Shown: positions 818 to 57,516, counted from the first letter of the stretch. The stretch: 64,000 bases of DNA from Antedon mediterranea (GCF_964355755.1 NC_092674.1:17360001-17424000), one strand, 5' to 3'. Program-made: numbers and translations. The notes: generated by a model from the sequence alone, not told the origin.

Positions 818-853
<36 letters not shown>

Positions 854-5613: not shown

Positions 5614-5650
<37 letters not shown>

Positions 5651-8945: not shown

Positions 8946-8981
<36 letters not shown>

Positions 8982-18939: not shown

Positions 18940-18975
<36 letters not shown>

Positions 18976-21166: not shown

Positions 21167-21200
<34 letters not shown>

Positions 21201-28740: not shown

Positions 28741-28776
<36 letters not shown>

Positions 28777-31700: not shown

Positions 31701-34700
31701 ATAGATCAGCGAGAGAGAGATAGATCAGCGAGAGAGAAATAGATCAGAGAGAGAGAGAGATAGATCAGCGAGAGAGAGATAGATCAGCGAGAGAGAGATA
31801 GATCAGCGAGAGAGAGATAGATCAGCGAGAGAGAGATAGATCAGCGAGAGAGAGATAGATCAGCGAGAGAGAGATAGATCAGCGAGAGAGAGAGAGATAG
31901 ATCGAGAGGAGAGAGATAGATCAGCGAGAGAGAGATAGATCAGCGAGACAGAGATAGATCAGCGAGAGAGAGATAGATAAGCGGGAGAGAGATAGATCAG
32001 CGAGAGAGATATAGATCAGCGAGAAAGAGATAGATCAGCGAGAGAGAGATAGATCGGCGAGAGAGAGATAGATCAACGAGAGAGAGAGATAGATCAACGA
32101 GAGAGAGATCAGCGAGAGAGATAGATCAGCGAGAGAGAGAGATAGGTCAGCGAGAGAGAGATAGATCAGCGAGAGAGAGATAGATCAGCGAGACAGAGAT
32201 AGATCAGCGAGAGCGAAATACATCGGGGAGAGAGAGATAGATCAGCGAGAGAGAGATAGATAAGCGAGAGAGAGATATATCAGCGAGAGAGAGATAGATC
32301 AGCGAGAGAGAGATAGATCAGCGAGAGAGATAGATAGATCAGCGAGAGAGAGAGATAGATAGATCAGTTAGAGAGAGATAGATCAGCGAGAGAGAGAGAT
32401 AGATAAGCCAGAGAGAGATAGATCAGCGAGAGAGAGATAGATCAGTGAGAGAGAGAGATAGATCAGCGAGAAAGAGATAGATCAGCGAGAGAGAGATAGA
32501 TCAGCGAGAGAGAGAGATATAGACCAGCGAGAGGGAGATAGATCAGCGAGAGAGAGATAGATCAGCGAGAGAGAGATAGATCAGCGAGAGAGAGATAGAT
32601 CAGCGAGAGAGAGATAGATCAGCGAGAGAGAGATAGATCATCGAGAGAGAGATAGATCAGCGAGAGAGATAGATCAGCGAGAGAGAGATAGATCAGCGAG
32701 AGAGAGATAGATCAGCGAGAGAGAAATAGATCAGCGAGAGAGAGATAGATCAGAGAGAGAGAGATAGATCAGCGATAGAGAGAGATAGATCAGCGAGAGA
32801 GAAATAGATCAGCGGGAGAGAGAGAGATAGATCGAGGAGAGAGAGATAGATCAGCGAGAGAGAGATAGATCAGCGAGAGAGAGATAGATCAGGGAGAGAG
32901 AGATAGATCAGCGAGAAAGAAATAGATCAGCGAGAGAAAGATTGATCAGCGAGAGAGAGATAGATCAGCGAGCAAGAGATAGATCAGCGAGAGAGAGATA
33001 GATCAGCGAGAGAGAGATAGATCAGCGAGAGAGAGATAGATCAGCGAGAGAGAGAGATAGATAATCGAGAGAGAGATAGATCAGCGAGAGAGAGATAGAT
33101 CCGCGAGAGAGAGATAGATCAGCGAGAGAGAGATAGATCAACGAGAGAGAAATAGATCGGCGAGAGAGAGATAGATCAGCGAGAGAGAGATAGATCAGCG
33201 AGAGAGAGATAGATCAGAGAGAGAGAGATAGATCAGCGATAGAGAGAGATAGATCAGCGAGAGAGAAATAGATCAGCGGGAGAGAGAGAGATAGATCGAG
33301 GAGAGAGAGATAGATCAGCGAGAGAGAGAGAGATCAGCGAGAGAGAGATAGATCAGCGAGAGAGAGATAGATCAGCGAGAGAGAGATAGATCAGCGAGAA
33401 AGAGATAGATCAGCGAGAGAGAGATAGATCAGCGAGAGAGAGCGATAGATCAGCGAGAGAGAGAGGTAGATCAGCGAGAGAGAAAGAGATAGATCAGCGA
33501 GAGAGAGATAGATCAGCGAGAGAGAGAGATAGATCAGCGAGAGAGAGATAGATCAGCGAGAGAAAGAGAGAGATAGATCAGCGAGAGAGAGATAGATCAG
33601 CGAGAGAGATATAGATCAGCGAGAGAGAGATAGATCAGCGAGAGAGAGATAGATCAGCGAGAGAGAGAGAAAGATCAGCGAGAGAGAGATAGATCAGCGA
33701 GAGAGAGATAGATCAGCGAGAGAGAGATAGATCAGCGAGAGAGAGATAGATCAGCAAGAGAGAGATAGATCAGCGAGAGAGAGATAGATCAGAGAGAGAG
33801 AGATAGATCAGCGATAGAGAGAGATAGATCAGTGAGAAAGAGAGAGAGATAGATCAGCGAGAGAGAGATAGATCAGCGAGAGAGAGATAGATCAGCGAGA
33901 GGGAGATAGATCAGCGAGAGAGAGAGAGATAGATCAGCGAGAGAGAGATAGATCAGCGAGAGAGAGATAGATCAGCGAGAGGGAGATAGATCAGCGAGAG
34001 AGAGATAGGTCAGCGAGATAGAGATAGATCAGCGAGAGAGAGATAGATCAGCGAGATAGAGATAGATCAGCGAGAGAGAGATAGATCAGCGAGAGAGAGA
34101 TAGATCAGTGAGAGAGAGATAGATGAGCGAGAGAGAGAGATAGATGAGCGAGAGAGAGATAGATCAGCGAGAGAGAGATAGATCAGTGAGAGAGAAATAG
34201 ATCAGCGAGAGAGAGATAGATCAGCGAGAGAGAGAGAGATAGATCAGCGAGAGAGAGATAGATCAGCGAGAGAGAGATAGATCAGCGGGAGAGAGATAGA
34301 TCAGCGAGAGAGAGATATAGATCAGCGAGAGAGAAATAGATCAGCGGGAGAGAGAGAGATAGATCGAGGAGAGAGAGATAGATCAGCGAGAGAGAGATAG
34401 ATCAGCGAGAGAGAGATAGATCAGCAAGAGAGAGATAGATCAGCGAGAGAGAAATAGATCAGCGAGAGAGAAATAGATCAGCGAGAGAGAGAGATAGATC
34501 AGCGAGAGAGAGAGAGATAGATCAGCGAGAGAGAGATAGATCAGCGAGAGAGAAATAGATCAGCGAGAGAGAGATAGATCAGCGAGAGAGATATAGATCA
34601 GCGAGAGAGAGATAGATCAGCGAGAGAGAGAGATAGATCATCGAGAGAGAGATAGATCAGCGAGAGAGATAGATCAGCGAGAGAGAGATAGATCAGCGAG

Positions 34701-37700
34701 AGAGAGATAGATCAGCGAGAGAGAAATAGATCAGCGAGAGAGAGATAGATCAGCGAGAGAGAGATAGATCAGCGAGAGAGAGATAGATCAGCGAGAGAGA
34801 GATAGATCAGAGAGAGAGAGATAGATCAGCGATAGAGAGAGATAGATCAGCGAGAGAGAAATAGATCAGCGGGAGAGAGAGAGATAGATCGAGGAGAGAG
34901 AGATAGATCAGCGAGAGAGAGAGAGATCAGCGAGAGAGAGATAGATCAGCGAGAGAGAGATAGATCAGCGAGAGAGAGATAGATCAGCGAGAGAGAGATA
35001 TATCAGCGAGAGAGAGATAGATCAGCGAGAGAGAGCGATAGATCAGCGAGAGAGAGAGGTAGATCAGCGAGAGAGAAAGAGATAGATCAGCGAGAGAGAG
35101 ATAGATCAGCGAGAGAGAGAGATAGATCAGCAAGCGAGAGATAGATCAGAGAGAGAGAGAGAGAGAGAGATAGATCAGCGAGAGAGAGATAGATCAGCGA
35201 GAGAGAGATAGATCAGCGAGAGAGAGATAGATCAGCGAGAGAGAGATAGATCAGCGAGAGAGAGATAGATCAGCGAGAGAAAGATAGATCAGCGAGAGAG
35301 ATAAAGATCAGCGAGAGAGAGATAGATCAGCGAGAGAGAGATAGATCAGCGAGAGAGAGAGAAAGATCAGCGAGAGAGAGATAGATCAGCGAGAGAGAGA
35401 TAGATCAGCGAGAGAGAGATAGATCAGCGAGAGAGAGATAGATCAGCGAGAGAGAGATAGATCAGAGAGAGAGAGATAGATCAGCGATAGAGAGAGATAG
35501 ATCAGTGAGAGAGAGAGATAGATCAGCGAGAGAGAGATAGATCAGCGAGAGAGAGATAGATCAGCGAGAGGGAGATAGATCAGCGAGAGAGAGATAGATC
35601 AGCGAGAGAGAGATAGATCAGCAAGAGAGAGCGATAGATCAGCGAGAGAGAGAGGTAGATCAGCGAGAGAGAGAAAGATAGATCAGCGAGAGAGAGATAG
35701 AACAGCGAGAGAGAGATAGATCAGCGAGAGAGAAAGAGATAGATCAGCGAGAGAGAGATAGATCAGCGAGAGAGAGATAGATCAGCGAGAGAGAGAGATA
35801 GATCAGCGAGAGAGAGATAGAACGATCAGCGAGAGAGAGATAGATCAGCGAGAGAGAGATAGATCAGCGAGAGAGAGATAGATCAGCGAGAGAGAGATAG
35901 ATCAGCGAGAGAGAGATAGATCAGCAAGAGAGAGATAGATCAGAGAGAGAGAGAGAGATAGATCAGCGATAGAGAGAGATAGATCAGCGAGAGAGAAATA
36001 GATCAGCGAGAGAGAGAGATAGATCGAGGAGAGAGAGATAGATCAGCGAGAGAGAGATAGATCAGCGAGAGAGAGATAGATCAGCGGGAGAGAGATAGGT
36101 CAGCGAGAGAGAGATAGATCAGCTAGAGGGAGATAGATCAGCGAGAGAGAGATAGATCAGCGAGAGAGAGAGATAGATCAGCGAGAGAGAGCGATAGATC
36201 AGCGAGAGAGAGAGGTAGATCAGCGAGAGAGAGAGAAAGATAGATCAGCGAGAGAGAGATAGATCAGCGAGAGAGATAGATAGATCAGCGAGAGAGAGAT
36301 AGATCAGCGAGAGAGAGAGAGAGAGATAGATCAGCGAGAGAGAGATAGATCAGCGAGAGAGAGATAGATCAGCGAGAGAGAGATAGATCAGCGAGAGAAA
36401 GATAGATCAGCGAGAGAGATATAGATCAGCGAGAGAGAGATAGATCAGCGATAGAGAGAGATAGATCAGCGAGAGAGAGATAGATCAGCGAGAGAGAGAT
36501 AGATCAGCGAGAGAGAGATATATCAGCGAGAGAGAGAGAGATAGATCAGCGAGAGAGAGATAGATCAGCGAGAGAGAGATAGATCAGCGAGAGAGAGATA
36601 GATCAGCGAGAGAGAGATAGATCAGCGAGAGAGAGATAGATCAGCGAGAGAGAGATAGATCAGCGAGAGAAAGATAGATCAGTGAGAGAGAGATAGATCA
36701 GCGAGAGAGAGATAGATCAGCGAGAGAGAGATAGATCAGCGAGAGGGAGATAGATCAGCGAGAGAGAGATAGATCAGCGAGAGAGAGATAGATCAGCGAG
36801 AGAGATATAAATCAGCGAGAGAGAGATAGATCGAGGAGAGAGAGATAGATCAGCGAGAGAGAAATAGATAAGCGAGAGAGAGATAGATCAGCGAGAGAGA
36901 GATAGATCAGCGAGAGAGAGAGAGAGAGACAGATCAGCGAGAGAGACACAGATCAGCGAAAAATACACAGATCAGCGAGAGAGAGAGAGAGAGACAGACA
37001 GACAGATTAGCGAGAGAGAGAGACAGATCAGCGAGAGAGGGACAGATCAGCGAGAGAGAGAGACAGATTGGCTAGAGAGAGACAGATCAGCGAGAGAGAG
37101 ACAGATCGGCTAGAGAGAGACAGGTCAGCGAGAGAGAGACAGATCAGCGAGAGAGAGATAGATCAGCGAGAAGGAGATAGATCAGCGAGAGAGAGATAGA
37201 TCAGTGAGAGAGAGATAGATCAGCGAGAGAGAGATAGATCAGCGAGAGAGAGAGATAGATCAGCGAGAGAGAGATAGATCAGCGAGAGAGAGATAGATCA
37301 GCGAGAGAGAGATAGATCAGAGAGAGAGAGAGAGAGAGATAGATCAGCGAGAGAGAGATAGATCAGCGAGAGAGAGAAAGATCAGCGAGAGAGAGATAGA
37401 TCAGCGAGAGAGAGATAGATCAGCGAGAGAGAGAGAGATAGCTCAGCGAGAGAGAGAAAGATCAGCGAGAGAGATAGATCATCGAGAAAGAGATAGATCA
37501 GCGAGAGAGAGATAGATCAGCGAGACAGAGATAGATCAGCGAGAGAGAGATAGATCTGCGAGAGAGAGATAGAGCAGCGAGAGAGAGATAGATCAGTGAG
37601 AGAGAGATAGATCAGCGAGAGAGAGATAGATCAGCGAGAGAGAGAAAGATCAGCGAGAGAGAGATAGATCAGCGAGAGAGAGATAGATCAGCGAGAGAGA

Positions 37701-38127
37701 GAGATAGATCAGCGAGACAGAGATAGATCAGCGAGAGAGTGATAGATCAGCGAGAGAGAAATAGATCAGCGAGAGAGAGATAGATTAGCGAGAGAGAGAT
37801 AGATCAGCGAGAGAGAGATAGATCAGCGAGAGAGAGAGATAGATCAGCGAGAGAGAGACAGATCAGCGAGAGAGAGATAGATAAGCGAGAGAGAGATAGA
37901 TCAGCGAGAGAGATATAGATCAGCGAGAGAGAGATAGATCAGCGAGAGAGAGATAGATCAGTGAGAGAGAGAGATAGATCAGCGAGCGAGAGATAGATCA
38001 GCGAGAGAGAGATAGATCAGCGAGAGAGAAAGATAGATCAGCGATAGAGAGAGATAGATCAGCGAGAAAGAGATAGATCAGCGAGAGAGAGAGATAGATC
38101 AGCGAGAGAGAGATAGATCAGCGAGGG
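1..38127 (+). repeat. 19-bp tandem satellite, consensus CAGCGAGAGAGAGATAGAT (~2000 units), open at the 5' window edge
   Basis: A period of 19 is directly visible, with 17/21-bp variants from (GA)n slippage. 15 of 19 bases are purines on +, and each unit has one GATC and one CpG. It ends abruptly at ...GATCAGCGAGGG|AGCGCACAATG. Confidence 0.99.
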
Positions 38128-38383
38128 AGCGCACAATGCAACTTTTCAATGCTAATCAGCGGCGGCCGATCAGCATATCGCGATGCAACCTGTTTTTTGG
38201 GTGCAATTATGCTGATTTCAGATGCACTCGCGTCGATTGAAGAATTTTCAGCAGTTAGGTAATCACTGGCATTCAGCCTCTTTCACTAATTTTATAAATA
38301 AACCCATCCGGACGCGGTGTTTTTTTAAATTTTTAAATTCATCTGTATTGATCTGATCGTTAAAACAGACTGTTTGTAGAAAG
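38128..38383 (+). promoter_or_regulatory. Probable promoter/5' UTR exons of the recombinase gene
   Basis: CpG-containing patch in AT-rich DNA. Candidate donor AG|GTAATC at 38259 and a 15-nt micro-exon 38369-38383 (AACAG|...AAAG|GTAAGG). Lies upstream of the first in-exon ATG at 39165. Inferred; no transcript evidence. Confidence 0.4.
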
Positions 38384-38533
38384 GTAAGGCTATAAGCTAG
38401 GTACTTTTATTACATTTTATTATCCTAACATAAATTTTTATTGCATAACCAAGTGCCTTAATCCCTGTACTAAAGTACAGAGATTTTTTGTTTTAAATGG
38501 CCAAAATAAAAAAATACCACCATAAAATGATTG

Positions 38534-39075
38534 TGGCCTAGCCTAGCCTAGGCCCAGGCCTAGCCTAGAGGCCCCTAGTTAGGCTTAGGCCTACTAGCCT
38601 AGGCCCTAGAGGGCTAGGTCTAGGCCTAGCTAGGCTAGGCCTAGGCCTAGCTAGCTAGCTAGAGGCCTAACAATAATTAATAAGCCCTCCTAGCTAGGCT
38701 AGGTCCTAGCTAGCTTAGCTAGGCCTAGCCTAGGAGGCATAGCCTACCTAGCTAGGCCTAGGCCTGCGTATTAAAGTATTATTATAGGCCTAGGCCTAGA
38801 TAGGGTAGGAACTAAACCTACCTCCTTGGGCCAGGCTATAGGGCCTACTAGCCTGGTCTACCTAGCTAGGCCTAGGCTAGGTTAATAATAGTTTAGGCCT
38901 AGCCTAGTTGGCTGAATCTGTCTGTAGCCTAGATAGGAGGTTAGGTGTAGGCCTATGTCATGTATAGGCCTAGTCTCTAGCTAGGCCTATCAATCATACC
39001 ACACTAGCTAGGTTAGAGTAGGCCCCTAGGCCTAGCATAAAGGAGAGGGTATTAAAAGTTGGACCACAGTAGGCC
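38534..39075. repeat. Low-complexity palindromic TAGGCCTA/CTAG-rich tract
   Basis: Dense irregular AGGCCT, CCTAGG and CTAGCTAG motifs within the presumed first long intron. Confidence 0.9.
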
Positions 39076-39164
39076 CTTCTCGTTAGCAAGTATATGCTAC
39101 CCCTGGCTTCAGTGCTTTTTTTTTCTTCAAAAAATGTATCATTTGTTCCACAGATTATTTCAAA

Positions 39165-42100
39165 ATGGACCGTTTTTGTAATTCACCCGTAAGTAAACAA
39201 TTCATTTACCTAAATTTACCTGAATCCAGGATGATTTATTCCAGGTTTGGTGGAGCGATTCAACTCGCTTTGTATACTGAAACATCCAGATTTTATGCTG
39301 GACCAAATGGTTGTTGTCAGTTGTTGGTATTTTAAGTTTATAAAATGTTATCGCTAAAGCAGACTTTTTATAAAATGTACGTCATTACTAATCTAATCTC
39401 CTAAATGAGCTGACATGTCCCGTACTGATAATGCTCCTTGGCTGAATCACAAATGTAATAATCCATTTATCTAGAGCTTATCTTAGTCATGGAATTCAAC
39501 TTTTTCAAGTACAGTATATAAAAGTAAGGTTAAGCCTTAGAAAAGTAATAATAATACTGCACTATGTAATAATAGTTACGGATAACTTTAGTTTAATTAT
39601 TTGTAACAAATATACAATAATAATAACATTATTTTTTTATAGCAACCTGATGAATTAACTGAAAGCGATTTTTTTTAATCATGAAGACTGGTAAGTATAG
39701 TTAGAAATTTATTGATAAATTACTCCATTTTTACATCCATGACAAATTTAGATGGTAAGTATTTTATTTTTAATTCCAATATTGTATCTTCGTTGGTACA
39801 GCCTTCTTGAAAAATGACATGTTATAAACAAACCTTTATTCATTTTTATTCATAATGATAAAAAAGTAAGGGTTTGAAATGATTTTTTTAATTATTTGCT
39901 TTAATGAAATAAAAGAGGTTAATAATTAGAGCCTGTATTTGTTTTTCAAAGTAAAAATTAACTAACAATATTTGTTTAATTTTATTATTAGTAGCAAAGA
40001 AGACTACATGTCTGACAAAGTGTAAGTATCCAATTTGAGAATAAATCTGTTGTGTTTGTATGAACCACGACATCCAGATTACTGATCTTGCGCTGATGGC
40101 TAGGGTTTAATTTGAGCCTACCTTGCAAATTTTAATATTAATCGGTTCAATAATTAACCAGTTAGTTAACTCGGGTGATTTGTTATCTGTGATAAACCAT
40201 TTTTGCCATAAATTTACAATTTTGTTTTATTTTGACGTAATTATTTATACTTTATTATTCACACCATACAATTCAAACTTATTTTTGTTAAAAAATAAAT
40301 ACTTGAAATTATTTTGTTAACGAAGAATAGGATATATACTGTTGTTTATTTACCTAAAGCCAAACATCTATTCTAATTTGTGCAAACATACATGCTTATA
40401 TAATTTCTATATTATTTCATAGTAGGTCTATAAATAGTTTTTTTTTTCGACTTTTATTTTAATACACCTACAATATTTGTGTGTACTTTGTGAACTATTA
40501 ATAGAAGTGAGGATGGAGAATTTGAGAAGAAAGAAAATAAGGAAGAGGAAAACATGGAGGAGGAAGAAAATGAGAAAGAAGACGAGGAAGAAGAAATGGA
40601 GGAAGAGGAAAACATGGAGGAGGAGGAGGAGATGGAGGAGGAGGAGGAGGAGGAGGAAGAAGAAGAAGAAGAAAGCGAGAAAGAAGACGAGGAAAAAGAA
40701 GAGGAGGTAGTTGAGATGTAAGTTATGAACTGTTTTGTATTTAGACATTCTAGAATGAACATAGTTTATCATTTTCTAAAATTTACCAGTATTATTTTTC
40801 TAGATTGAGCTTATTATGTAGCAAAACATATACTATTGAGCATCCTTATTTGTGTTAACTTTAGTTATTACTATAACCATAACAATATTTTTTTAATTTG
40901 TTTAGGTATAGTGATTTTCAAAAGAAGGGAAAAAAGTAAATATAATATTTTTTGACTAATACTGTAATTAAAATAAACAGCCAATGGATCACTTAGGCCC
41001 TAAATGCTATGTTATTAAATAATGTAAAAATAAAAATACGGTAGTTATATACAGTTAACATGAAATATTATATTACTTTATCAGTACTTTTCCTTTAATA
41101 CCTATGTGTTGTATTTTGTTTTTATTAGGAAGGACATAGAAAAGAAGAAAGCTGTAAGGGAAAGTAGCATATTGAATATACTTTTGTACTTAATTTGAAG
41201 TAAAATATTAACTTAAACTTTGTTTCCTCATTTTTTTTATTATCAATTTAGCTAGATTAAATTTTCCCTGTAGATTAGCATCAAAAATCTAATTACCGTA
41301 GATAGTTGTAGTTTACATCTGTGGTTACTGAAGTCTTAAATTATTTAACTTCATTAAAATAGTTTTTTTTATTGAATACAAATAATATAAAATTTTATAT
41401 TTTGATATTGGTTGTTGATAATGAATAGACCTTAAAGCATTCATTCAAAATAGTCATGGTTTATTATTGCCTACAGAACAGAAAATTGTTAACATGCATT
41501 CTGTGTGGCCGCATAAGCAGGTACCTTGCCAGCCATCTGGAAAAGGCCCACAAAATAATAAATAGAGAAATAATTAAAAACATGGTTGCTGATGCTAGAA
41601 AAAGGTGAGTACTTCATTCATTATGAACAATTTTTTTCATGTGGTTACCAGCTAAATTATAAATAACATATTGTTAAGTATAACATGGAGTTTCTTCAGC
41701 TAAATATAATAAATTACATATTTTTATTTATCTTAGTTTTGTTTGCAGTTTCTTTTTTATAGAATATTTTACTAGTTAACTCTACCAATACTGGAAACCG
41801 AAAACTGCACTTGTAATGTATTGAAAACCAAACATTCTCAATGGTTTCTATTTTTGGGTGAATTGAATACTGTGATTGGATTATTGAAAAATGATAAACA
41901 GTTTTGTATGTTTTATCTAGTTATCATGAGTGTATCATTTAAAGTTTTCTAGATACTAATGATAAAGGGGGAAAAAAAAAGGCCAGACATTCCTGCAGTG
42001 TGCCTGGATGTTCGGCTAAAAACCTGGCAAGGTATGACATGCATCTGCAAAGGAAGCATAAATTCCCTGTAAGTTAAAATTCTTTCAACTTTAGCAGATA

Positions 42101-45100
42101 TATGTTCAATCAAATGTTAAATTAAATTTTTTGTTTTATTTCAGACCAAGAAATAGTGTGTAGAGTAGTAATGTATTTCCAACTATTATAATTGTTTGTT
42201 TATTGTTTATTTTTTTTTAAAATATGTATGTTAATTACAAAAATCTTTTTTTTAGAGTTCGTAGAGTATCACCACTCTGTCTCAGGTCCAAATTTTGAGG
42301 TGTACATGCAGTACACTTTAAAATTATTTATTATTTTGTTAGTATTTAATAGAATGTGTGTTTGTTTTATTTTAATCTATGCTTAAATCCACCACATTCA
42401 AATTCGGATGTGGCATACACTTTCATATTAACATCATCCACCAGATAACTGCATGCATGTTTATTTGTTTAGTAGTTTATAGAATGTGTTTGTATGTTTG
42501 TTTTTTTTTTATTTAATCTATGCTAATTTTTCAGATTCAAATCCTGATGTGGCATACACTTTCATATTAACATCATCCACCAGATAACTGCATGCATGTT
42601 TATTTATTTAGTAGTTTATAGAATGTGTTTGTGTGTTTGTTTTATTTTAATTTAATCTATGCTAATCACTCAGATTCAAATCCTGATGTGGCATACACTT
42701 TCATATTAACATCATCCACCAGATAACTGCATGAATGTTTATTTGTTTAGTAGTTTATAGAATGTGTTTGTATGTTTGTTTTATTTTAATTTAATCTATG
42801 CTAATCACTCAGATTCAAATCCTGATGTGGCATACACTTTCATATTAACATCATCCACCAGATAACTGCATGCATGTTTATTTGTTTACTAGTTTATAGA
42901 ATGTGTTTGTGTGTTTGTTTTTTAAAAATTTAATCTATGCTAATTTTTCAGATTCAAATCCTGATGTGGCATACACTTTCATATTAACATCATCCACCAG
43001 ATAACTGCATGCATGTTTATTTGTTTAGTAGTTTATAGAATGTGTTTCAGTTTTTGTTTTTTTTAATTTAATCTATACTAATTTTTCAGATTCAAATTCG
43101 GATGTGGCATACACTTTCATATCTCACATCATCCACCAGATAACTGCATGCATGTTTTTTTTGTTTAGTAGTTTATAGAATGTGTTAATCCATGCTAATC
43201 ACTAAAATCTATTTCTTTTATAGAATGCTATCATAGCTCAGCTGGTAGAGCATCGGCACTCTTGTCGAAGGTCTCGGGTTCAAATCCTGATGTGGCATAC
43301 ACTTTCATATTAACATCATCCACCAGATAACTGCATGCATGTTTATTTGTTTAGTAGTTTATAGAATGTGTTTGTGTGTTTGTTTTATTTTAATTTAATC
43401 TATGCTAATTTTTCAGATTCAAATCCTGATGTGGCATACACTTTCATATTAACATCATCTACCAGATAACTGCATGCATGTTTTTTTGTTTAGTAGTTTA
43501 TAGAATGTGTTTGTGTGTTTATTTTACTTTAATTTAATCTATGCTAATCACTCGGATTAAAATCCTGATGTGGCATACACTTTCATATTAACATCATCCA
43601 CCAGATAACTGCATGCATGTTTATTTGTTTAGTAGTTTATAGAATGTGTTTGTGTGTTTATTTTTGTTAATTTAATCTATGCTAATCACTCAGATTCAAA
43701 TCCTGATGTGGCATACACTTTCATATTAACATCATCCACCAGATAACTGCATGCATGTTTTTTTTGTTTAGTAGTTTATAGAATGTGTTAATCTATGCTA
43801 ATCACTAAAATCTATTTCTTTTATAGAATGCTATCATAGCTCAGCTGGTAGAGCATCGGCACTCTTGTCGAAGATCTCGGGTTCAAATCCTGATGTGGCA
43901 TACACTTTCATATTAACATCATCCACCAGATAACTGCATGCATGTTTATTTGTTTAGTAGTTTATAGAATGTGTTTGTGTTTTGTTTTATTTTAGTTTAA
44001 TCTATGCTAATTTTTCAGATTCAAATCCTGATGTGCCATACACCTTCATATTAACATCATCCACCAGATAACTGCATGCACGTTTTTTTGTTTAGTAGTT
44101 TATAGAATATGTTAATCCATGCTAATCACTAAAATCTATTTCTTTTATAGAATGCTATCATAGCTCAGCTGGTAGAGCATCGGCACTCTTGTCGAAGGTC
44201 TCGGGTTTGAATCCTGATGTGGCATACACTGTCATATTAACATCATCCACCAGATAACTGCATGCATGTTTTTTTGTTTAGTAGTTTATAGAATGTGTTT
44301 GTGTGTTTATTTTATTTTAATTTAATCTATGGTAATCACTCAGATTCAATTCCTGATGTGGCATACACTTTCATATTAACATCATCCACCAGATTACTGC
44401 ATGCATGTTTATTTTTTATTTACTTTGTAATTGTTTTTAAATACTTTAATTTTCGCTGTATGTCTTAATCCATGCTAATTTCTTAGCTTAATTGTGATGC
44501 AAATCAAAGTTATATAGGTAAGTTATACATTTACATTTTTTTTTTGGTTGGCAGTCCTGAATATATTAAGTTCAGACAACAAAAAGTCTGTAAATTTGCA
44601 GGTAACCTTTTATTTATAAAATTATTATAAAGTTTCATTTTTTGATAGATAATTAATAGTTTCAATTTAAAAATAAATGTGTACCTTTTATTGACAAAAA
44701 CAATTCATTTTATCTATGCTGGAGAATTATAATTACCTAATTTCTACTACTAACTACTACATTTAGGTCAAATACAAAGTTCTCTTTATCCCAAATAATT
44801 ACTATTAATTTAGATAACCAATCCCAGACACTAATAAATAAAATTACTGTAATAACAATTGTAATATAATAATAATTATGTCATGGGTCAACTTTCGGAT
44901 CCTGAACTTTGTTTTCCAAGAATGGACTTATTTTTAATGTCATTAAAGTCTTTTTAACTTCTATAGAGCCATCTACAACAATGAGCCGGTTCAAGGCCTA
45001 CATGTTAGAAACTTTAAAAATACCGGCAAAGCATGCAGCACAGGTCATAAAGGGGATAGAGGGAATTTGGAGTGAAGCAGGGGAGAAGGGATATTCTCCA

Positions 45101-48100
45101 AAGATATTAAAGACGTAACATTTTTTTATTACAATTATATTAATAGAAAAAGGAAGAAGCCAAACAATTTAAATTTCATTTAGCATTAAAATAAAAAGTT
45201 TTCTTAAATTTCAGCTATAGATTGTGAGTATAATGTATTATTGCCTGCTACCTTCATTTTCTTGAAGGAAGAAATAAATGTTAAGTTGAATTTGAATTGA
45301 ATTTTAAACCATGTGAAGTTACCATGAATCACTTGATCCTAATTACCATATTGAAGATATTACATATTTTAATATTTGATTTTTGTGTATTGTACTCTTC
45401 TTTTCATTTTTTTAAAAATAATTGTTTAGTGCTGTTAGCCATTTACAATTGAAGCTTGCTGGCTCCACGTTAAGACACTACCTGTGCTCCTTTGTGAAAA
45501 TATTGGACTACATTTCAATATACGAATCTAAATCTGTTTCGCTTGCCGAAATATACAAGTGCAAAGATGCATGCAAAGGCCTGAGCAAAGCTCTCAGAAA
45601 ACGCATTTCTGAAGAGAAGGCCAAAAAGCACGAAGAAATTGAAGGTAACATCTACTGAATTAAAGTTTTTCTTTTCATCAAATGTTTGAAAGTCATATTA
45701 TTTAAATTGAAATAATAATAATAATATGTTTTAATTTTCTTTTAAGGTGATCTAGTTTCGGCGGACGAACAATCCCATTATCTCAGAAAATCTGAGAAAA
45801 CAATTAAAAGCATAGTTGGTATGTTTTTTATATTATTTCTTTATCCATAAAATGTATTGATAATCATAAGATTTATCATATTGTATGTTATTAGGTAAAG
45901 ACTAGGAGAAACTTGGAGAAATAACTAAAACTAACCTTAATCCTAGCTTATTTAGTCATTGTGTTAGTAAAGGTAATTAGGTATAGGTAAAATGTTGATT
46001 ATGATATTGTTCTAAGGTTCACCTGTATTTACCAGGACAAGGTCACTATGTAAATGATCAAAATCCTTTTACTAAACTAAGTACAGTAGTAGTTAATTGA
46101 TTTCCAAGTACCCTTAATCTATCTGGGTGCATTCTTGCACAATATTATTATGGTTGTCTGGCTGGCTATCCTTTTACTTTTACTATTGATATATAAAAAT
46201 GTAGTATGTTACCTTTTATTTCAGGCATTGGATGATTGGCAATTTTAATTTTATTAAATTAAACTAGGAGAATGGGAAAAGTAAACTATTTTAAAGGCAA
46301 AAATATTCACACATAATTTTATAATAAATAAATAACCTTATTTCTGAACATTTACATCTAGTTCAAATCCTGATGTGTCATACATCATCCACTCAATAAC
46401 TGTGTATTTAATTTTTAATATTTTGTTTTAGTGGTTTATAGAATGTGTTAATCCATGCTAATCACTAAAATCTATTTCTTTTATAGAATACTATCATAGC
46501 TCAGCTGGTAGAGCATCGGCACTCTTGTTGAAAGTCTCAGGTTCAAATCCTGATGTGGCATACACTTTCATATTAACATCATCCACCAGATAACTGCATG
46601 CATGTTTTTTTTTTGTTTAGTAGTTTATAGAATGTGTTTGTGTGTTTATTTTACTTTAATTTAATCTATGCTAATCACTCAGATTCAAATCCTGATGTGG
46701 CATACACTTTCATATTAACATCATCCACCAGATAACTGCATGCATGTTTATTTGTTTAGTAGTTTATAGATTGTGTTAATCCATGCTAATCACTAAAATC
46801 TATTTCTTTTATAGAATGCTATCATAGCTCAGCTGGTAGAGCATCGGCACTCTTGTCGAAGGTCTCGGGTTCAAATCCTGATGTGGCATACACTTTCATA
46901 TTAACATCATCCACCAGATAACTGCATGCATGTTTATTTATTTAGTAGTTTATAGAATGTGTTTGTGTGTTTGTTTTATTTTAATTTAATCTATGCTAAT
47001 CACTCAGATTCAAATCCTGATGTGGCATACACTTTCATATTAACATCATCCACCAGATAACTGCATGAATGTTTATTTGTTTAGTAGTTTATAGAATGTG
47101 TTTGTATGTTTGTTTTATTTTAATTTAATCTATGCTAATCACTCAGATTCAAATCCTGATGTGGCATACACTTTCATATTAACATCATCCACCAGATAAC
47201 TGCATGCATGTTTATTTGTTTAGTAGTTTATAGAATGTGTTTGTATGTTTGTTTTATTTTAATTTAATCTATGCTAATCACTCAGATTCAAATCCTGATG
47301 TGGCATACACTTTCATATCTAACATCATCCACCAGATAACTGCATGCATGTTTATTTATTTAGTAGTTTATAGAATGTGTTTGTGTGTTTGTTTTATTTT
47401 AATTTAATCTATGTTAATCACTCAGATTCAAATCTGATGTGGCATACACTTTCATATTAACATCATCCACCAGATAACTGCATGAATGTTTATTTGTTTA
47501 GTAGTTTATAGAATGTGTTTGTATGTTTGTTTTATTTTAATTTAATCTATGCTAATCACTCAGATTCAAATCCTGATGTGGCATACACTTTCATATTAAC
47601 ATCATCCACCAGATAACTGCATTAATGTTTATTTGTTTAGTAGTTTATAGAATGTGTTTGTGTGTTTGTTTTTTTTAAATTTAATCTATGCTAATTTTTC
47701 GGATTCAAATCCTGATGTGGCATACACTTTCATATTAACATCATCCACCAGATAACTGCATGCATGTTTTTTGTTTAATAGTTTATAGAATGTGTTAATC
47801 CATGCTAATCACTAAAATCTATTTCTTTTATAGAATGCTATCATAGCTCAGCTGGTAGAGCATCGGCACTCTTGTCGAAGGTCTCGGGTTCAAATCCTGA
47901 TGTGGCATACACTTTCATATCTCACATCATCCACCAGATAACTGCATGCATGTTTATTTATTCAGTACTTTATAGAATGTGTTTGTGTGTTTATTTTTGT
48001 TAATTTAATCTATGCTAATCACTCGGATTCAAATCCTGATGTGGCATACACTTTCATATCTAACATCATCCACCAGATAACTGCATGCATGTTTATTTGT

Positions 48101-51100
48101 TTAGTAGTTTATAGAATGTGTTTCAGTTTTTGTTTATTTTAATTTAATCTATACTAATTTTTCAAATTCAGATGTGACATACACTTTCATATCTCACATC
48201 ATCCACCAGATAACTGCATGCATGTTTATTTGTTTAGTAGTTTATAGAATGTGTTTGTGTGTTTGTTTTATTTTAGTTTAATCTATGCTAATTTTTCAGA
48301 TTCAAATCCTGATATGGCATACACTTTCATATCTCACATCATCCACCAGATTACTGCATGCATGTTTATTTGTTTAGTAGTTTATAGAATGTGTTTGTGT
48401 GTTTATTTTACTTTAATTTAATCTATGCTAATCACTCAGATTTAATTCATGATGTGGCATACACTTTCATATCTCACATCATCCACCAGATAACTGCATG
48501 CATGTTTATTTATTTAGTAGTTTATATAATGTGTTTGTATGTTTGTTTTATTTTAATTTAATCTATGCTAATCACTCAGATTCAAATCCTGATGTGGCAT
48601 ACACTTTCATATTAACATCATCCACCAGATAACTGCATGCATGTTTTTGTTTAGTAGTTTATAGAATGTGTTAATCCATGCTAATCACTAAAATTTATTT
48701 CTTGTATAGAATGCTAACATAGCTCAGCTGGTAGAGCATCGGCACTCTAGTCGAAGGTCTCCGGTTCAAATCCTGATCTGGCATACACTTTCATTTTTAT
48801 TTTGTTTTAGTAGTTTATAGAATGCTTTTTTCAATACTAATTAGTCATCAAATCCTGAATATTAACATCCACCTGACATGCACATGTTTATTTCTTTTAT
48901 TTCATTTTATTTTTAATTTTTGCTGATCATAAAAATCTATTTCTTTTAGAAAATGCTATTGGTAAGAAATCCATATTTTATGGGGTTTTTTTTCGGTCTT
49001 GCTCCTTCACTTATACAAATCTACTGATGTATAAGTTTGATTCAACAGATTTTTAGTACTAAAGTGGTTCCTCAACCTAATTTAGTTTTTATTAAAAAAA
49101 CTGTTTATCAAACTTTCAGAAACGATAAAGAACGGGGAGAGTTTGGAAAACCCATCTAAGCGGTTCCTCCGCATTCATATTATGCTACTTCTGTCCATGA
49201 ACAATGGCTGTAGGACTGGTGTTCTGGCAAATGCTACATTGGAGCAGTACTATAAAAGAACAGCAGCCACAAATGGCATGTCAGTTATGAAAGTGAGTAA
49301 AATATACATTTTTTAATGTATTCTTGAATATATGAATTAACAGTTTACATGTTTTGGTTGTTGTACACAGTTTAAGTTGTTCAGTGGGCTATCATTACAC
49401 AAATCAACAGCTACAGAAATATGATGAAGTCGATGAAGTAAGCTACAGAACAGTAAGAGTATTGTGAATTATAAAACATCCTTAGCAACCAATTTTGTTA
49501 TGTTGTCTATATGTTATATGTTAATAATCATTACTGTAAGTGATTTTGCAGGTTTCAAAGCATAAAACATCTTGTAAATTTGGTGCAGCAAATTTAGTGA
49601 TAACTGAAGAACTGGCTGAATTAATAGAGATTTACATAAAGTACTGTAGGCCAATACAATCGGCAACCGACCACCTGTTCCTGAGTTGCACAGGGGCATC
49701 AATTAGATGCGCTCAGGAAATGACCCGCCACTGGGCGGAAGTAACACACAGCACCAGGCCCATCAATCCCACCAATTTAAGAAAGGCAGCAGCCACTCTA
49801 GTATGTGATTGTTACTTATTGCTTTAAACCTATCAATAGATGAGAAATATTATTTTCAAGTGATAAACCATCAGTTATATTTTGTTTTGGGAATTATGTG
49901 GGACACAATTTGTAAGTGTAGAATAATTCATTACATATTACCTTCTCTTTAAATAATTTCATCAGTCCTGGGGTCACTGCGACGAAAGGGAAAGAGTTGT
50001 GGTTGCTGACCATATGGCCCACAAATTATCAACGCAAGAGGCATACTATAAAGCCACGCAATCCCGGGAGACGGCTGTAAGAGCCCACAATCTTATAGCA
50101 GCAAACCGTCAACTCGGGAGAAGTGGGGTAAGATTTAATTTCTGTCTAAAATGTTTGTATCCCGAAAGATGTTTATTTTTTATTGAAACATAACATAATA
50201 TAAAGAATATATCTAACACTTTAATAATTAGCAATCAACAAGAAAACAAACATTGCATCTATTAACTAAAATTTTACTTTACTTTTTTTAATGTGCTATG
50301 TACACTTTTTCAGAATATAAATGAAACTGCTGATGTCCAGGTAAGGATGGCCATTACTTTCATATAAAAAACAAAAGAATGCAAACTGTATAATTTATGT
50401 GTTTTATAAATGCTGTATAACTACCAATTAAAGGAACACAATTTCGCATCTTAAATCATTTTAATATTAAGCTTTTATTATCCCAAATGCAATACATACT
50501 TCACCTTAAGGTATATCTTTTCTAGGTAGCATTTTCACATGTGGAGATGAAATGCTGGTAAGATACAATTTTCACATAAATATATATTTTTCCAGTGTCC
50601 ATTTATTTACAGGACTGAATTCTATGTAATCATTATTATTATCTTGTATACCTCTTTACGAATAATGAAACAAGTAATGGTATTATGTACAATATTATTT
50701 TACATTCACCAGGAAATTTCTCAAGCACATGCGAATGAAGCGCCATCATCTGTAAGTATTCAATAATTGTTAATAAGGACACATTTGTAAAGCATCAAAC
50801 TAATATTGCCAGACCACACTCCAGTCCACACTCTTTTTAATTGGTACTGCAATATATGGTCAACGTTGATGTAGTATTTTTAAACAATTTGTATGAGTAC
50901 TGTACATTATCGTTTTAGTACTGCAGTATGATTCCTTGGGTGATGGTAGGATTTTGAGTCTCCCAATATATTGCACTAATGTTTTTACCAGGTCAGCAAA
51001 GTTTCCTGGTATATTTGGCTTTACTGTACTTGTTTAATTAGTTTTTATTTCAGGTCAGCAAAATGTCCCTTGTACTTGTATGGACATTCTTTAACTGTTT

Positions 51101-52501
51101 TTATCAGGTCTTGGTATCTCAAAAAACAGGAAAATGTTTACTTTTTAAATTTGCACATTACTCTTTGTATTCTCTAGTTTGTATGCTTAGTTAATTTATT
51201 TATACAAACTAATTTGAGGCCTCCCCAAGATAACTTCTGTAGTTTCTAAAGTAATTGTTCAAATCCTCACTTTGCAGTTGTATATTGTTTAAATGTAGTA
51301 GTTTTCAGAATGATTTTTCCATACTAAATATCAACATCTTCTTCTGTTATAGAATGCTATCATAGCTCAGTTGGTAGCTTAGTAGTTTATAGAATGTGTT
51401 TGTGCTTTTTTTTTTATTTAATCTATACTAATTTTTCAGATTCAAATCCTGATATGGCATACACTTTCATATCTCACATCATCCACCAGATAACTGCATG
51501 CATGTTTATTTGTTTAGTAGTTTATAGAATGTGTTTGTGTGTTTGTTTTATTTTAGTTTAATCTATGCTAATTTTTCAGATTCAAATCCTGATGTGGCAT
51601 ACACCTTCATATTAACATCATCCACCAGATAACTGCATGCACGTTTTTTGTTTGTTTAGTGGTTTATAGAATGTGTTGATCCATGCTAATCACTAAAATC
51701 TATTTCTTTTATAGGATGCTATCATAGCTCAGCTTGTAGAGCATCGGCACTCTGGTCTCGGGTTCAAATCCTGATGTGCCATACACTTTCATATTAACAT
51801 CATCCACCAGATAACTGCATGCACGTTTTTTGTTTGTTTAGTGGTTTATAGAATGTGTTAATCCATGCTAATCACTAAAATCTATTTCTTTTATAGGATG
51901 CTATCATAGCTCAGCTGGTAGAGCATCGACACTCTTGTCTCGGGTTGAAATCCTGATGTGGCATACACTTTTATTTTAACATCAACCACCAAATAACTGC
52001 ATGCATTTTTAGTTTTGTGTAGTACTGAGTTTATAGAATGTGTTTATTTTATTTTAATTTAATCTATGCTAATCACCCATAATCAAATCCATATGTGGCA
52101 TACAATTTCATATTAACATCATCCACCAGATAATCTTACAAGCACTTTAATTACTCCTGGTATTATTGTCATTATTATTGTTATCTAAAACATCAATACA
52201 ATTCTCATTTGAAATACTTAAAGTACATTTTCTGTAAAACTTATTTCACCTATTAATTTGACTTTATTATTTTTCTACTTTCAATATAACTAGTCTGTAA
52301 GCCATCCTCTATGTATGTTTAATGTTTATGTATTATCTATTTAATTGTAATAATCACCATCACATTATTAAATACAATTTTTATTTTTTTTTGTAGGCAA
52401 GAGAAGTCTATAACAAAAATCCAGTTCTCCATTACTCTGAATTTCAACAGTTATATGACAAAATGAGGAGGATCCATCCAAAGGTAGGTTTATGTTTTTA
52501 A
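39165..52501 (+). CDS. Multi-exon tyrosine recombinase (phage-integrase fold) with N-terminal acidic tract and two C2H2 zinc fingers; Crypton-like DNA transposon protein
   Basis: Phase-compatible exons: 40505-40717, 40906-40935, 41129-41153, 41477-41604; then 44967-45114, 45215-45223, 45430-45644, 45747-45818, 48950-48961, 49120-49292, 49552-49800, 49966-50127, 50314-50340; probable 50713-50751 and 52397-52483 (reading through gives TAA at 52499-52501). Putative first coding exon 39165-39188 (MDRFCNSP|GTAAGT). Motifs NGCRTG, VSKHKT, PTNLRKAAAT, ADHMAH, TQEAYY. Joins at 39.2-40.5 kb and 41.6-44.9 kb are unresolved. Confidence 0.85.
40505..40717 (+). CDS. Exon: Glu-rich acidic low-complexity tract of the recombinase
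   Basis: TTAATAG acceptor and GTAAGT donor at 40718. The frame reads SEDGEFEKKENKEEENMEEEE...EEVVE, and the split codon AT|G joins exon 40906 in frame. Confidence 0.75.
41477..41604 (+). CDS. Exon: C2H2 zinc finger 1
   Basis: CTACAG|...AG|GTGAGT. Translates NRKLLTCILCGRISRYLASHLEKAHKII (CxxC...L..H....H), in frame with exon 41129-41153. Confidence 0.85.
41953..42068 (+). CDS. Exon: C2H2 zinc finger 2
   Basis: TTCTAG|...CCT|GTAAGT. Translates KARHSCSVPGCSAKNLARYDMHLQRKHKFP. Its start phase does not directly match the finger-1 exon, so an intervening micro-exon or a lesion is needed. Confidence 0.75.
42335..44410 (+). repeat. Intronic tandem array 1 of tRNA-derived repeat (139-bp short unit and ~188-bp unit with full tRNA-like head)
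   Basis: CAGATTCAAATCCTGATGTGGCATACAC recurs at 42532, 42671 and 42810 (period 139). Full heads at 43227, 43830 and 44154. Confidence 0.95.
43227..43297 (+). pseudogene. tRNA-like/SINE head (representative copy; others at 43830, 44154, 46490, 46818, 47837, 48713, and truncated at 51356, 51718, 51900)
   Basis: A box TAGCTCAGCTGG, D stem GCTC/GAGC, stem TCGGC/GTCGA with a 6-nt loop, B box GGTTCAAATCC in T stem TCGGG/CCTGA. The acceptor stem is imperfect (GCTATCA/TGTGGC). Confidence 0.85.
44967..45818 (+). CDS. Four exons (one of 9 nt) encoding the probable core-binding (SAM-like) helical domain of the recombinase
   Basis: 44967-45114, 45215-45223, 45430-45644 and 45747-45818 join in frame: MSRFKAYMLETLKIPAKHAAQVIKGIEGIW...TYRFAVSHLQLKLAGSTLRHYLCSFVKILDY...GDLVSADEQSHYL. 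The STLRHYLxS motif resembles integrase N-terminal helices. Confidence 0.8.
46358..48900 (+). repeat. Intronic tandem array 2 of the same tRNA-derived repeat
   Basis: Same 139/~188-bp units with degenerate units at both edges; fills most of intron 45819-48949. Confidence 0.95.
49120..50127 (+). CDS. Three exons encoding the tyrosine recombinase catalytic domain
   Basis: Arg 49212-49214 (NGCRTGVLAN), Lys 49564-49566 (HKT), Arg 49780-49782 (TNLRK), His 50020-50022 (MAH), Tyr 50044-50049 (EAYY). Both internal introns are phase 0 with canonical GT-AG, and there are no stops. Confidence 0.92.
51350..52135 (+). repeat. Intronic tandem array 3 of the tRNA-derived repeat
   Basis: Same units; the heads at 51718 and 51900 share a short deletion in the anticodon-arm/variable region. 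Confidence 0.92.
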
Positions 52502-52570
52502 TTTCAGTGGCATGCAGTAGCAAGAAATTATTTAAAAGCATTGCAAGTTTTCTATAGAACTATGAAGATT

Positions 52571-55503: not shown

Positions 55504-56012
55504 CCAAGGATATCCTTATAACCCTTTTTAAAAATTGGAGTCACTTGTGCCACCTTCAAGTCATCATGAAAAACACCTGTGACAAGTTATAAGTTAATAA
55601 TATATGTTAATGGCTTTGCAATAACAATAGATGAATCCTTAATTAATCTAGCAGATAACTGGTCATGTCAAGTGGACTTTTTTATATCTATATTTCTTAA
55701 TAATTCTTTAAATTCTAAAACAGGTTTCCAAAATAAAAGAGGAACTAATTGAATTTTTCAAATAATCATTGGAACTTTTTTGAGAACAATCAATCTTGCT
55801 TGCTAATTTCTGCCGATATTTACAAAATAATCATTAAACAAGTCGGCTTTTTGTTCATTGGAATTACATTCAATATTAACATCATTTAATGATTCTTTAA
55901 GTTTATCTGGAATAATTTCATGAACAGTCTGACTTTTGCCTTTAAGAATACTATTTATAATTCCCCCATGTTTTAGTAGTATTACTATTTGTTTTTTACT
56001 TTTCATAAACAA
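55504..56012 (-). mobile_element. Degenerate CR1/L2-group non-LTR retrotransposon ORF2 fragment (region preceding RT)
   Basis: The minus strand reads QKADLFNDYFVNIG and KST*HDQLSARLIKDSSIVIAKPLTYIINL*LVTGVFHDDLKVAQVTPIFKKG, with in-frame stops. Confidence 0.85.
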
Positions 56013-56018
56013 ATCACC

Positions 56019-57510: not shown

Positions 57511-57516
57511 GTTATT

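What the first reader, a model, noticed from the sequence alone, without database searches (positions are those of the whole stretch)
39165..52501. Intron-rich zinc-finger tyrosine recombinase (Crypton-like) with an apparently intact catalytic core, hidden from the ORF track
Seen: nine consecutive exons from 44967 to 50340 join in frame without stops and give R (NGCRTG), K (HKT), TxxR in place of HxxR, H (MAH) and Y (EAYY). Upstream are an acidic tract and two C2H2 fingers; downstream is a QQLYDKMR tail. Established: eukaryotic intron-containing YR genes without RT are typical of Crypton DNA transposons or their domesticated derivatives. Inference: ~15-20 exons including 9-, 12-, 25- and 27-nt micro-exons over 13 kb, the sequence-specific-looking fingers and the internal repeat cargo suggest a large, possibly undescribed YR mobile element lineage in an invertebrate.
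Basis: partly seen in the sequence, partly recalled or inferred. Interest (0 to 1): 0.88.

Follow-up and report, generated by a model that had tools for sequence, protein, structure and literature searches.

The report
Satellite-edge spliced recombinase transposon, feather star
This is a real, intron-split gene for a DNA cut-and-rejoin enzyme (a tyrosine recombinase) that starts right where a huge satellite repeat ends in a genome whose closest named matches are feather stars; it is likely the engine of a repeat-homing jumping gene of the known but thinly described CryptonV kind, and this copy looks damaged outside its catalytic core.

Summary
Observation confirmed. Nine AG/GT-bounded exons (44967-50340) join into 355 codons without a stop and align colinearly, 27.5% over 327 columns, E 3e-38, with a crinoid protein of the same layout: acidic start, C2H2 fingers, helical domain, recombinase, acidic linker, helical tail. 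Models of two homologs have Cre/Xer recombinases as top, weak fold hits. TxxR for HxxR is a family trait (T or S in 4 of 4 homologs), not a lesion. New here: the gene's 5' region abuts a 38-kb 19-bp satellite at 38125, a junction also held by a second sample; variant contigs hint at three or more copies; differences to a second organism are mostly synonymous (dN/dS about 0.25). Three frame problems lie outside the core, the micro-exons are unproven, and the right end is not in the window. Best reading: a CryptonV-like, repeat-homing recombinase DNA transposon; membership could not be tested by sequence. This scan noted the same layout before in other genomes (e1-9814851, e1-9071664). Real and under-described, but not a new kind.

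The parts
1..38125 (+). 19-bp GA-rich satellite array, about 1960 units, ending part-way through a unit directly before the element; candidate target
   Evidence: period 19, 1963.5 copies; 1341 of 1823 units are 19 nt; the last unit stops after its first six bases; junction bridged in run X5 by a 298-nt contig over 38084-38366
38126..39150 (+). probable left end and promoter region: CpG-rich first 200 bp, then a CCTAG-rich low-complexity stretch
   Evidence: CpG observed/expected 1.27 in 38126-38330 against 0.08-0.58 in five other stretches; no stable hairpin, z 0.08; that it is the element's end is inferred
39165..41153 (+). six candidate 5' exons (39165-39188, 39643-39690, 39992-40021, 40505-40717 acidic tract, 40906-40935, 41129-41153); the second has a stop in all three frames
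   Evidence: splice signals only
41477..41604 (+). C2H2 finger exon 1
   Evidence: aligns to a finger of P0014, score 59, 0 of 2000 shuffles reach it; covered by organism B contigs with mostly synonymous differences
41953..42068 (+). C2H2-like finger exon 2; out of phase with exon 1 unless an 11-nt exon is used; joins the core in frame through 44487-44517
   Evidence: match to P0014 weak (57 of 2000 shuffles reach it)
42331..44418 (+). intronic tandem array 1 of a 139/217-bp module with tRNA-like copies
44967..45818 (+). four exons (one of 9 nt) for the helical N-terminal domain, likely the core-binding (SAM-like) domain
   Evidence: score 102 against P0014 151-300, 0 of 1000 shuffles reach it; helical in the P0014 model
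46361..48824 (+). intronic tandem array 2 of the same module
48950..48961 (+). 12-nt candidate micro-exon, doubtful
   Evidence: in frame with or without it; context matches the repeat module
49120..50127 (+). three exons for the tyrosine recombinase catalytic domain (R, K, TxxR, H, YY)
   Evidence: Pfam Phage_integrase E 0.15 on exon 49552 only; fold hits of homolog models
50314..50751 (+). linker exons 50314-50340, 50526-50557 (frame-shifting in this copy) and 50713-50751
51333..52133 (+). intronic tandem array 3 of the same module
52397..52483 (+). exon for the last part of a helical C-terminal domain (YDK.R motif), Myb/SANT-like in homologs by weak hits
   Evidence: 0, 2 and 10 of 2000 shuffles reach its scores against P0014, P0005, P0003; P0003 tail hits SANT/Myb families below cut-off
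55724..55765 (+). candidate last exon (13 codons and a stop) after an 82-bp tandem array at 52571-55476
   Evidence: splice signal and frame only

Best explanation
The spliced gene encodes a tyrosine recombinase with zinc fingers and a helical tail, and it is likely the transposase of a CryptonV-like DNA transposon that homes to tandem repeats, here the 19-bp GA-rich satellite next to which it starts. Shown: the exons, the catalytic residues in order, homologs with the same layout, the satellite junction in two samples. Hinted: several copies per genome and purifying selection. Inferred from how Cryptons are proposed to move (Goodwin model as summarised in PMC3212892): the enzyme would bind the two element ends, cut through a phosphotyrosine link, release the element as a circle and rejoin it at a few matching bases inside a satellite unit, without inverted repeats or a true target duplication; the fingers and the tail would help read the repeat or the ends. 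Because a DNA transposon is not copied through RNA, its gene keeps introns, and these have filled with a tandemly amplified tRNA-like module. This copy is likely crippled outside the core (three frame problems, which may be mutations, assembly errors or unmodelled exons).
For: Nine exons in frame with R-K-TxxR-H-Y. Colinear match to P0014, 27.5% over 327 columns, E 3e-38, and to P0003 and P0005, E 1e-24 and 3e-23; these are Anneissia and Amphiura proteins. For both homolog models the ten best PDB rows are tyrosine recombinases (Cre E 1.0e-3, probability 1.0; XerH, Tn1549 Int, XerA, E 0.09-0.36), and XerH is the top VIA row for P0014 (Z 8.6, rmsd 11.5, 178 aligned, tied with unrelated helical chains). 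The satellite stops part-way through a unit and a CpG-rich stretch begins at once; run X5, another sample and study, has one contig across the junction at depth 11.7, about the summed depth of X5 elsewhere on the gene, so most of its copies may share the junction. In run X1 variant contigs split about 2:1 (101:50, 108:58, 106:61) and 3:1 (133:44), and one differs at 15 of 160 bases, which fits three or more copies better than two alleles (the tool warns that depth is no copy number). Of 27 listed exon differences to organism B, 14 are synonymous where 21% would be expected, P 5e-4, dN/dS about 0.25. CryptonV families are reported to insert specifically in microsatellites (PMC8869645 passage). 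Atlas neighbours of P0002 are unnamed chordate and cnidarian clusters at 0.95-0.96.
Against: Only one end is seen: no satellite, and no direct or inverted copy of the left end, was found in 38200-64000, so no terminal repeat, empty site or second flank was shown. A shared junction in two samples of one species may be one inherited locus, not repeated targeting. No sequence comparison with Repbase CryptonV was possible. Profile evidence is weak: Phage_integrase E 0.15 against a cut-off of 27 bits, no Pfam recombinase hit for P0014 or P0003, no PDB Foldseek hit with E under 0.001, and the models are of homologs with mean pLDDT 47 and 59. The syn/non-syn count rests on the 40 differences listed per call (118 and 70 more were not shown). 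Purifying selection also fits a host gene. The 19-bp target is a satellite, not a microsatellite.
Confidence: 0.55

Rival explanations
1. A mobile Crypton-like recombinase element without a preference for this satellite: it sits at the array's edge because repeat-rich regions collect transposons, or because the satellite grew beside it.
For: The rest of the window holds other decayed elements (a LINE-like RT remnant and a DUF6729-family fragment). Only one junction is known. Animal CryptonA and CryptonI have no terminal repeats and no target preference was noted in the part read (PMC3212892 part 2).
Against: The array is unbroken for 38 kb (largest gap between unit marks 66 nt) and ends within a unit exactly where the CpG-rich start lies; X5 holds the junction at about its full depth; two earlier notes of this scan report the same kind of gene in telomere repeats (unchecked).
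Confidence: 0.22
2. A domesticated, host-retained recombinase gene lying in a duplicated block at a satellite boundary; it would act as a DNA-binding or recombining host protein and no longer move.
For: About 20 exons, a CpG-rich start, purifying selection, and RefSeq isoform models for the Anneissia homolog (7 members).
Against: Domesticated DUF3504 genes lost the tyrosine and second arginine; here both stand. Identity to the Anneissia protein is only 27.5%, and Anneissia has at least two divergent loci, one with a partial tandem duplication of the catalytic part. The window's copy has frame problems, and samples of the same species differ by indels and insertions.
Confidence: 0.15
3. The integrase end of a larger endogenous DNA virus-like element, as in repeat-inserting nimaviruses of crustaceans, whose other genes lie beyond the window.
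For: Majaniviral recombinases carry a C2H2 finger and an N-terminal SAM-like domain and insert in repeats; two whispoviruses have multi-exon recombinase genes (PMC10871703 passages).
Against: No long ORF (longest 122 aa) and no virus-like gene among the pieces scanned in 38-64 kb; introns are large and host-like; the viral structure library gives only generic integrase and VLF-1 rows; no related locus in viral contigs.
Confidence: 0.05

Closest known systems
CryptonV (Kapitonov and Jurka 2012, Repbase Reports 12:2034; not seen, known here only from the citing passage and reference in PMC8869645 and the class tables in PMC4455052 and PMC5753468)
   Same: Animal DNA transposon lineage with a tyrosine recombinase; some families insert specifically in microsatellites; described from cnidarians, where the Atlas also places look-alikes of the homolog.
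   Different: Its domain layout, intron content and ends are not given in the passages I could read, so they could not be compared; the target here is a 19-bp satellite.
CryptonA, CryptonI, CryptonF, CryptonS (Kojima and Jurka 2011, PMC3212892; parts 1-2 of 7 and 12 passages read)
   Same: Recombinase without reverse transcriptase; proposed excision as a circle; short or no terminal repeats.
   Different: CryptonA and I have no C-terminal domain and F has GCR1_C; this protein has N-terminal fingers and a helical tail, and neither its exons nor its homologs hit DUF3504 or GCR1_C.
Repeat-targeting recombinases of endogenous nimaviruses and related decapod YR-like genes (Kawato et al. 2023, PMC10871703; abstract, 12 passages, sections 15 and 26, search of 3 supplements)
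   Same: C2H2 finger, SAM-like N-terminal domain and recombinase; only five of seven key residues located; insertion into tandem repeats; some genes multi-exon; relatives outside viruses.
   Different: Those sit in large viral genomes and target telomere repeats or 28S rDNA. Their tree used CryA, F, I, S, Kangaroo and Tec alignments and names no CryptonV, so the link between the two is open.
Starship captains (DUF3435)
   Same: Recombinase at the start of a large element with cargo; Atlas rows at 0.85-0.86, one cluster with C2H2 (leads only).
   Different: Fungal; no DUF3435 Pfam hit here.
Uncharacterised proteins LOC117114584 and LOC117103586 of Anneissia japonica, XP_072048483.1 of Amphiura filiformis, XP_069107072.1 of Argopecten irradians
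   Same: True homologs with the same motifs; the first has the whole layout.
   Different: 27-34% identical; unannotated; their genomic context could not be fetched.

Membership tests
Tyrosine recombinase superfamily | Catalytic R, K, HxxR, H/W, Y in order and spacing | tested here: met
   R183, K214, R286, H311, Y319/320 of the joined core; the H of HxxR is T here and T or S in 4 of 4 homologs
Tyrosine recombinase superfamily | Integrase catalytic fold | tested here: met
   Weakly and through homologs: ten best PDB rows for both models are Cre, Xer or Tn1549 Int, best E 1.0e-3; models low in confidence; Atlas rows with a family are Phage_integrase clan
Crypton (any group) | Recombinase is the only mobilising enzyme, no reverse transcriptase | tested here: inconclusive
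   No RT in the gene; a decayed LINE-like RT piece lies 2 kb past it between 32-nt inverted repeats and looks like a separate insertion, but the element's right end is unknown
Crypton (any group) | Short 4-6 bp direct repeats at both ends, or no terminal repeats; no TIRs | not testable with these tools
   Right end not found in the window; no genome held
Crypton (any group) | Dispersed multiple copies | tested here: inconclusive
   Contig variants and depth ratios hint at three or more copies; their places are unknown
CryptonV | Target-specific insertion in simple repeats | tested here: inconclusive
   Left junction with a satellite in the window and in run X5; one end and possibly one locus only
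CryptonV | Recombinase groups with Repbase CryptonV sequences | not testable with these tools
   No Repbase or Dfam library; the defining report and the 2020 review are not held
CryptonA / DUF3504 | DUF3504-type recombinase with no C-terminal domain | tested here: not met
   No DUF3504 hit for 7 exons of this gene or for P0002-P0005, P0014, P0016; a conserved C-terminal domain is present
CryptonF | C-terminal GCR1_C domain | tested here: not met
   No GCR1_C hit in homologs or in the tail exon
Nimaviral telomere-type recombinases | C2H2 finger and SAM-like domain before the catalytic domain | tested here: met
   Finger exons and a helical domain conserved with P0014; the label SAM-like is inferred from position and helices
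Nimaviral telomere-type recombinases | Encoded in a nimavirus genome inserted in (TAACC)n or 28S rDNA | tested here: not met
   Flank is a GA-rich 19-mer; no long ORF in 38-64 kb; no rRNA match
Nimaviral telomere-type recombinases | Phylogenetic grouping | not testable with these tools
   The sequences are not in the 3 supplements searched nor among my hits
Starship | DUF3435 captain | tested here: not met
   No Pfam DUF3435 hit; Atlas rows under 0.9 are leads only
DIRS / Ngaro retrotransposons | RT-RNase H ORF overlapping or next to an intron-poor recombinase ORF | tested here: not met
   Recombinase split by large introns; no ORF over 122 aa in 38-64 kb

The most novel reading that the evidence does not exclude
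A metazoan-wide but barely described lineage of large, intron-rich, repeat-homing recombinase elements (finger - core-binding - recombinase - helical tail) that retargets to whatever tandem repeat a host has, here a species-level 19-bp satellite instead of a microsatellite or telomere; it spans more than 26 kb, carries amplified tRNA-like polymerase III modules in its introns, and is the pool from which crustacean nimaviruses took their repeat-specific integrases.
Probability: 0.25. Interest if true: 0.72.

Novelty: new member of a known kind. Interest (0 to 1): 0.46.

Why it matters
Animal recombinase transposons that choose repeats are known mostly from database entries; their targeting rules, ends and proteins have hardly been worked out in papers I could find. 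An apparently whole catalytic core beside a clean satellite junction, with near-identical copies and a sister species under selection, gives a handle on how a eukaryotic tyrosine recombinase recognises a tandem repeat, on whether such elements shape satellite boundaries, and on where nimavirus integrases came from. A repeat-specific eukaryotic integrase would also be of interest as a safe-harbour insertion tool. It also shows why the family is missed: no exon reaches a Pfam cut-off and the homologs are all 'uncharacterized'.

Tried and rejected
No whole genome is held, so copies, flanks and empty sites could not be counted. No RNA holder was listed; run X5, guessed as RNA, has contigs that run through introns with no joints, so no splice junction was tested. 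Run X9 held a small share and only 3 short pieces were laid; not used. Organism B runs X6 and X8 give almost no depth on the satellite bin (30 and 5 against 1.27 million and 0.63 million in X1 and X5) and no cover of 38218-38360 or of most of 39076-39790; lack of cover proves nothing and is not counted. Word-indexed protein search with exon 49552-49803 found 0 of 29 candidates; with alignment A2, 1 of 6837, the query itself. The full HMMER search gave 7 hits; I dropped 3 (P0001, P0006, P0007) as repeat-driven and kept 4. PDB sequence searches gave 0 and 2 irrelevant rows; PHROGs gave no integrase family; tblastn of P0014 against phages no match; no related loci in metagenome contigs (596 pattern matches, none confirmed) or viral contigs. 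The wide VIA search of the P0003 model listed no recombinase among 50 rows, best Z 6.6, filled by helical chains. Candidate exons 45895-45972, 46225-46280, 49371-49452, 42256-42299 and 44555-44601 were rejected for stops or frame. No exon for the first helices of the C-terminal domain was found in 50341-56020. No hairpin at the left end, no copy of the left end or of the satellite downstream. The idea that the DUF6729 gene is the element's second gene was set aside: only the last third is present and it is frameshifted. Paper searches: DUF6729/PF20499 0 papers; CryptonV/H terms 19 papers, 16 listed, none devoted to the group; five-term search with C2H2 and satellite 1 review; further searches showed no paper describing this layout in echinoderms by title or abstract start; subscription journals and Repbase Reports were not searched.
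Full report
Reading 38.5-54 kb and fixing boundaries by script gave nine exons between 44967 and 50340, each with AG before and GT after, that join into 355 codons with no stop, while the other frames have 24 and 28. The residues R, K, TxxR, H and YY fall at 49212, 49564, 49771-49782, 50020 and 50044-50049. A stop-to-stop ORF list shows these exons only as pieces of under 100 aa, which is why an ORF track hides the gene.

Homology is the stronger test. A full HMMER search with the largest exon gave 7 hits, of which 4 are true relatives and 3 are repeat artefacts. The four are uncharacterised proteins of the crinoid Anneissia japonica (two loci), the brittle star Amphiura filiformis and the scallop Argopecten irradians. 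The joined core aligns to the Anneissia isoform P0014 colinearly, 27.5% over 327 columns, E 3e-38. P0014 has the same order of parts as the window's gene: acidic start, C2H2 fingers, a helical domain, the catalytic domain, an acidic linker and a helical tail ending in a YDK.R motif. The first finger exon and the tail exon each match it better than all 2000 shuffles; the second finger matches weakly, 57 of 2000. The place of the H in HxxR holds T or S in 4 of 4 homologs, so it is a family trait.

That it is a tyrosine recombinase rests on the motifs plus several weak, agreeing signals: Pfam Phage_integrase at E 0.15 on one exon; Atlas neighbours in the integrase clan; and models of two homologs (mean pLDDT 47 and 59) whose ten best PDB rows are Cre (E 1.0e-3) or XerH, Tn1549 Int and XerA (E 0.09-0.36). 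XerH tops the wide structural search for P0014 at Z 8.6, rmsd 11.5, 178 aligned, tied with unrelated helical chains. No single signal passes a strict cut-off, and the window's own spliced protein was not folded.

The copy is clean only in the core. Exon 39643-39690 has a stop in every frame. The two finger exons are out of phase unless a weak 11-nt exon is used. Exon 50526-50557 shifts the frame if included and is 10 nt shorter than in X5 and X6 contigs, and most X1 depth there carries other letters; skipping it keeps the frame. These may be mutations, assembly errors or exons I failed to model. The 9- and 12-nt micro-exons are optional and lower the score to the homolog (341 with, 365 without); the 12-nt one begins with 28 bases that are 93% identical to the intronic repeat. 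In all I count 22 candidate exons, 1912 nt, from 39165 to a possible last exon at 55724-55765.

Bases 1-38125 are a 19-bp GA-rich satellite of about 1960 units, with no gap over 66 nt between unit marks, ending after the sixth base of a unit. A CpG-rich 200 bp follows at once (observed/expected 1.27), then a CCTAG-rich stretch and the first coding exon 1 kb in. Run X5, another sample and study of the same organism, has a 298-nt contig over 38084-38366 at depth 11.7, close to its summed depth elsewhere on the gene. In run X1, 49 contigs were laid on 48850-51300 (21 at 99% or more, 16 at 95-99, 9 at 90-95, 3 under 90); variants split about 2:1 at three places and 3:1 at one, and one contig differs at 15 of 160 bases. 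This hints at three or more copies, though the tool warns that depth is no copy number. A second organism holds the gene from about 40.7 kb on; of 27 listed differences in six exons 14 are synonymous, against 21% synonymous sites, P 5e-4, dN/dS about 0.25, on lists that showed only the 40 best-supported differences per call. No right end was found up to 64000.

Three introns hold arrays of one 139/217-bp module, 41 pieces in all. Seven copies match the Rfam tRNA family above its gathering score; ARAGORN calls none, and the folded copy has a 6-nt anticodon loop and no better energy than shuffles. They are tRNA-like, likely pseudogene- or SINE-head-derived, with A- and B-box-like words (read by eye, consensus recalled). 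Whether they are cargo with a role or just amplified intron DNA is open. Downstream lie a decayed RT piece and the last third of a DUF6729-family gene, 81-88% identical in one exon to Antedon mediterranea proteins, with a deletion and a frameshift; this places the host among feather stars by likeness and looks like a separate dead element.

Mechanism. The most likely reading is a recombinase-driven DNA transposon that homes to tandem repeats. By the Crypton model (PMC3212892 part 1) the enzyme would excise the element as a circle and insert it by strand exchange over a few matching bases; here those would lie in the satellite unit. Gene, residues, homologs and left junction are shown; copy number and selection are hinted; excision, circle, targeting and the role of fingers and tail are inferred. 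Rivals: a mobile element that merely lies at the satellite's edge (0.22), a domesticated gene in a duplicated block (0.15), the end of a large endogenous virus (0.05).

Comparison. CryptonA and I lack a C-terminal domain and CryptonF has GCR1_C; no DUF3504, GCR1_C or DUF3435 hit was seen, so it is none of these. CryptonV is named as a target-specific group from cnidarians that inserts in microsatellites (PMC8869645 passage and reference; class tables in PMC5753468 and PMC4455052); I saw no sequence or structure for it, so it works like CryptonV but membership is untested. Nimaviral recombinases have a C2H2 finger and SAM-like domain, insert in repeats, are sometimes multi-exon and have non-viral relatives in decapods (PMC10871703); that paper's tree names no CryptonV, and its supplements held no recombinase sequences that my search found. 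Intron-containing Cryptons are not new in themselves: most Glomhopper CryptonA copies have introns (PMC13465315 part 1 of 9 and 9 passages). Earlier notes of this scan describe the same layout in telomere repeats of other genomes; they are unchecked leads, and I had reached the CryptonV reading before opening them.

Verdict: a real gene and most likely a new member of a known but thinly documented kind. Interest 0.46; higher if the right end, the flanks of other copies and a tree show a broad lineage that retargets to host satellites and supplied viral integrases.

Noticed in passing
window 43227-43297, 43830-43900, 44154-44224, 46495-46555, 46818-46888, 47837-47907, 48713-48783: Seven tRNA-like copies (Rfam RF00005 above gathering, not called by ARAGORN, 6-nt anticodon loop) inside a tandem module spread over three different introns of the recombinase gene; two more decayed copies near 51.7-52.0 kb.
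   Followed up: partly
window 61539-62600: Last third of a DUF6729 (PF20499)-family gene with two introns, a 24-nt deletion and a frameshift near 62419; full-length Antedon relatives show D, D, DxxH and E motifs that by eye recall a DDE transposase (recalled, not tested); no paper in the library names DUF6729.
   Followed up: partly
window 57165-58760: Decayed LINE-like reverse transcriptase piece (RVT_1 E 2e-5) framed by a 32-nt inverted repeat at 57165-57196 and 58729-58760, inserted in a 47-bp repeat array.
   Followed up: partly
window 52571-55476 and 56019-57157: An 82-bp array of 35.5 copies (in the putative last intron) and a 47/124/259-bp higher-order array just past the putative stop.
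   Followed up: no
window 59720-61050: Five or six short exon-like pieces with AG/GT signals and no Pfam match; possibly part of another gene.
   Followed up: partly
window 1-38125: The satellite has extreme strand skew (GC skew about 0.56, AT skew about 0.6) and very high summed depth in two samples of organism A (1.27 million and 0.63 million), so it is a major repeat of that genome.
   Followed up: partly
window 49686 and 50328 (run X5 loose ends): Contigs of the second sample leave the window's sequence inside catalytic exon 49552-49800 and inside exon 50314-50340, which suggests insertions that break some copies in that individual.
   Followed up: no
proteins P0002/P0019 (Anneissia LOC117114584) and P0004/P0020 (Argopecten): Both homolog loci show tandem partial duplications of the catalytic region in their gene models.
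   Followed up: no
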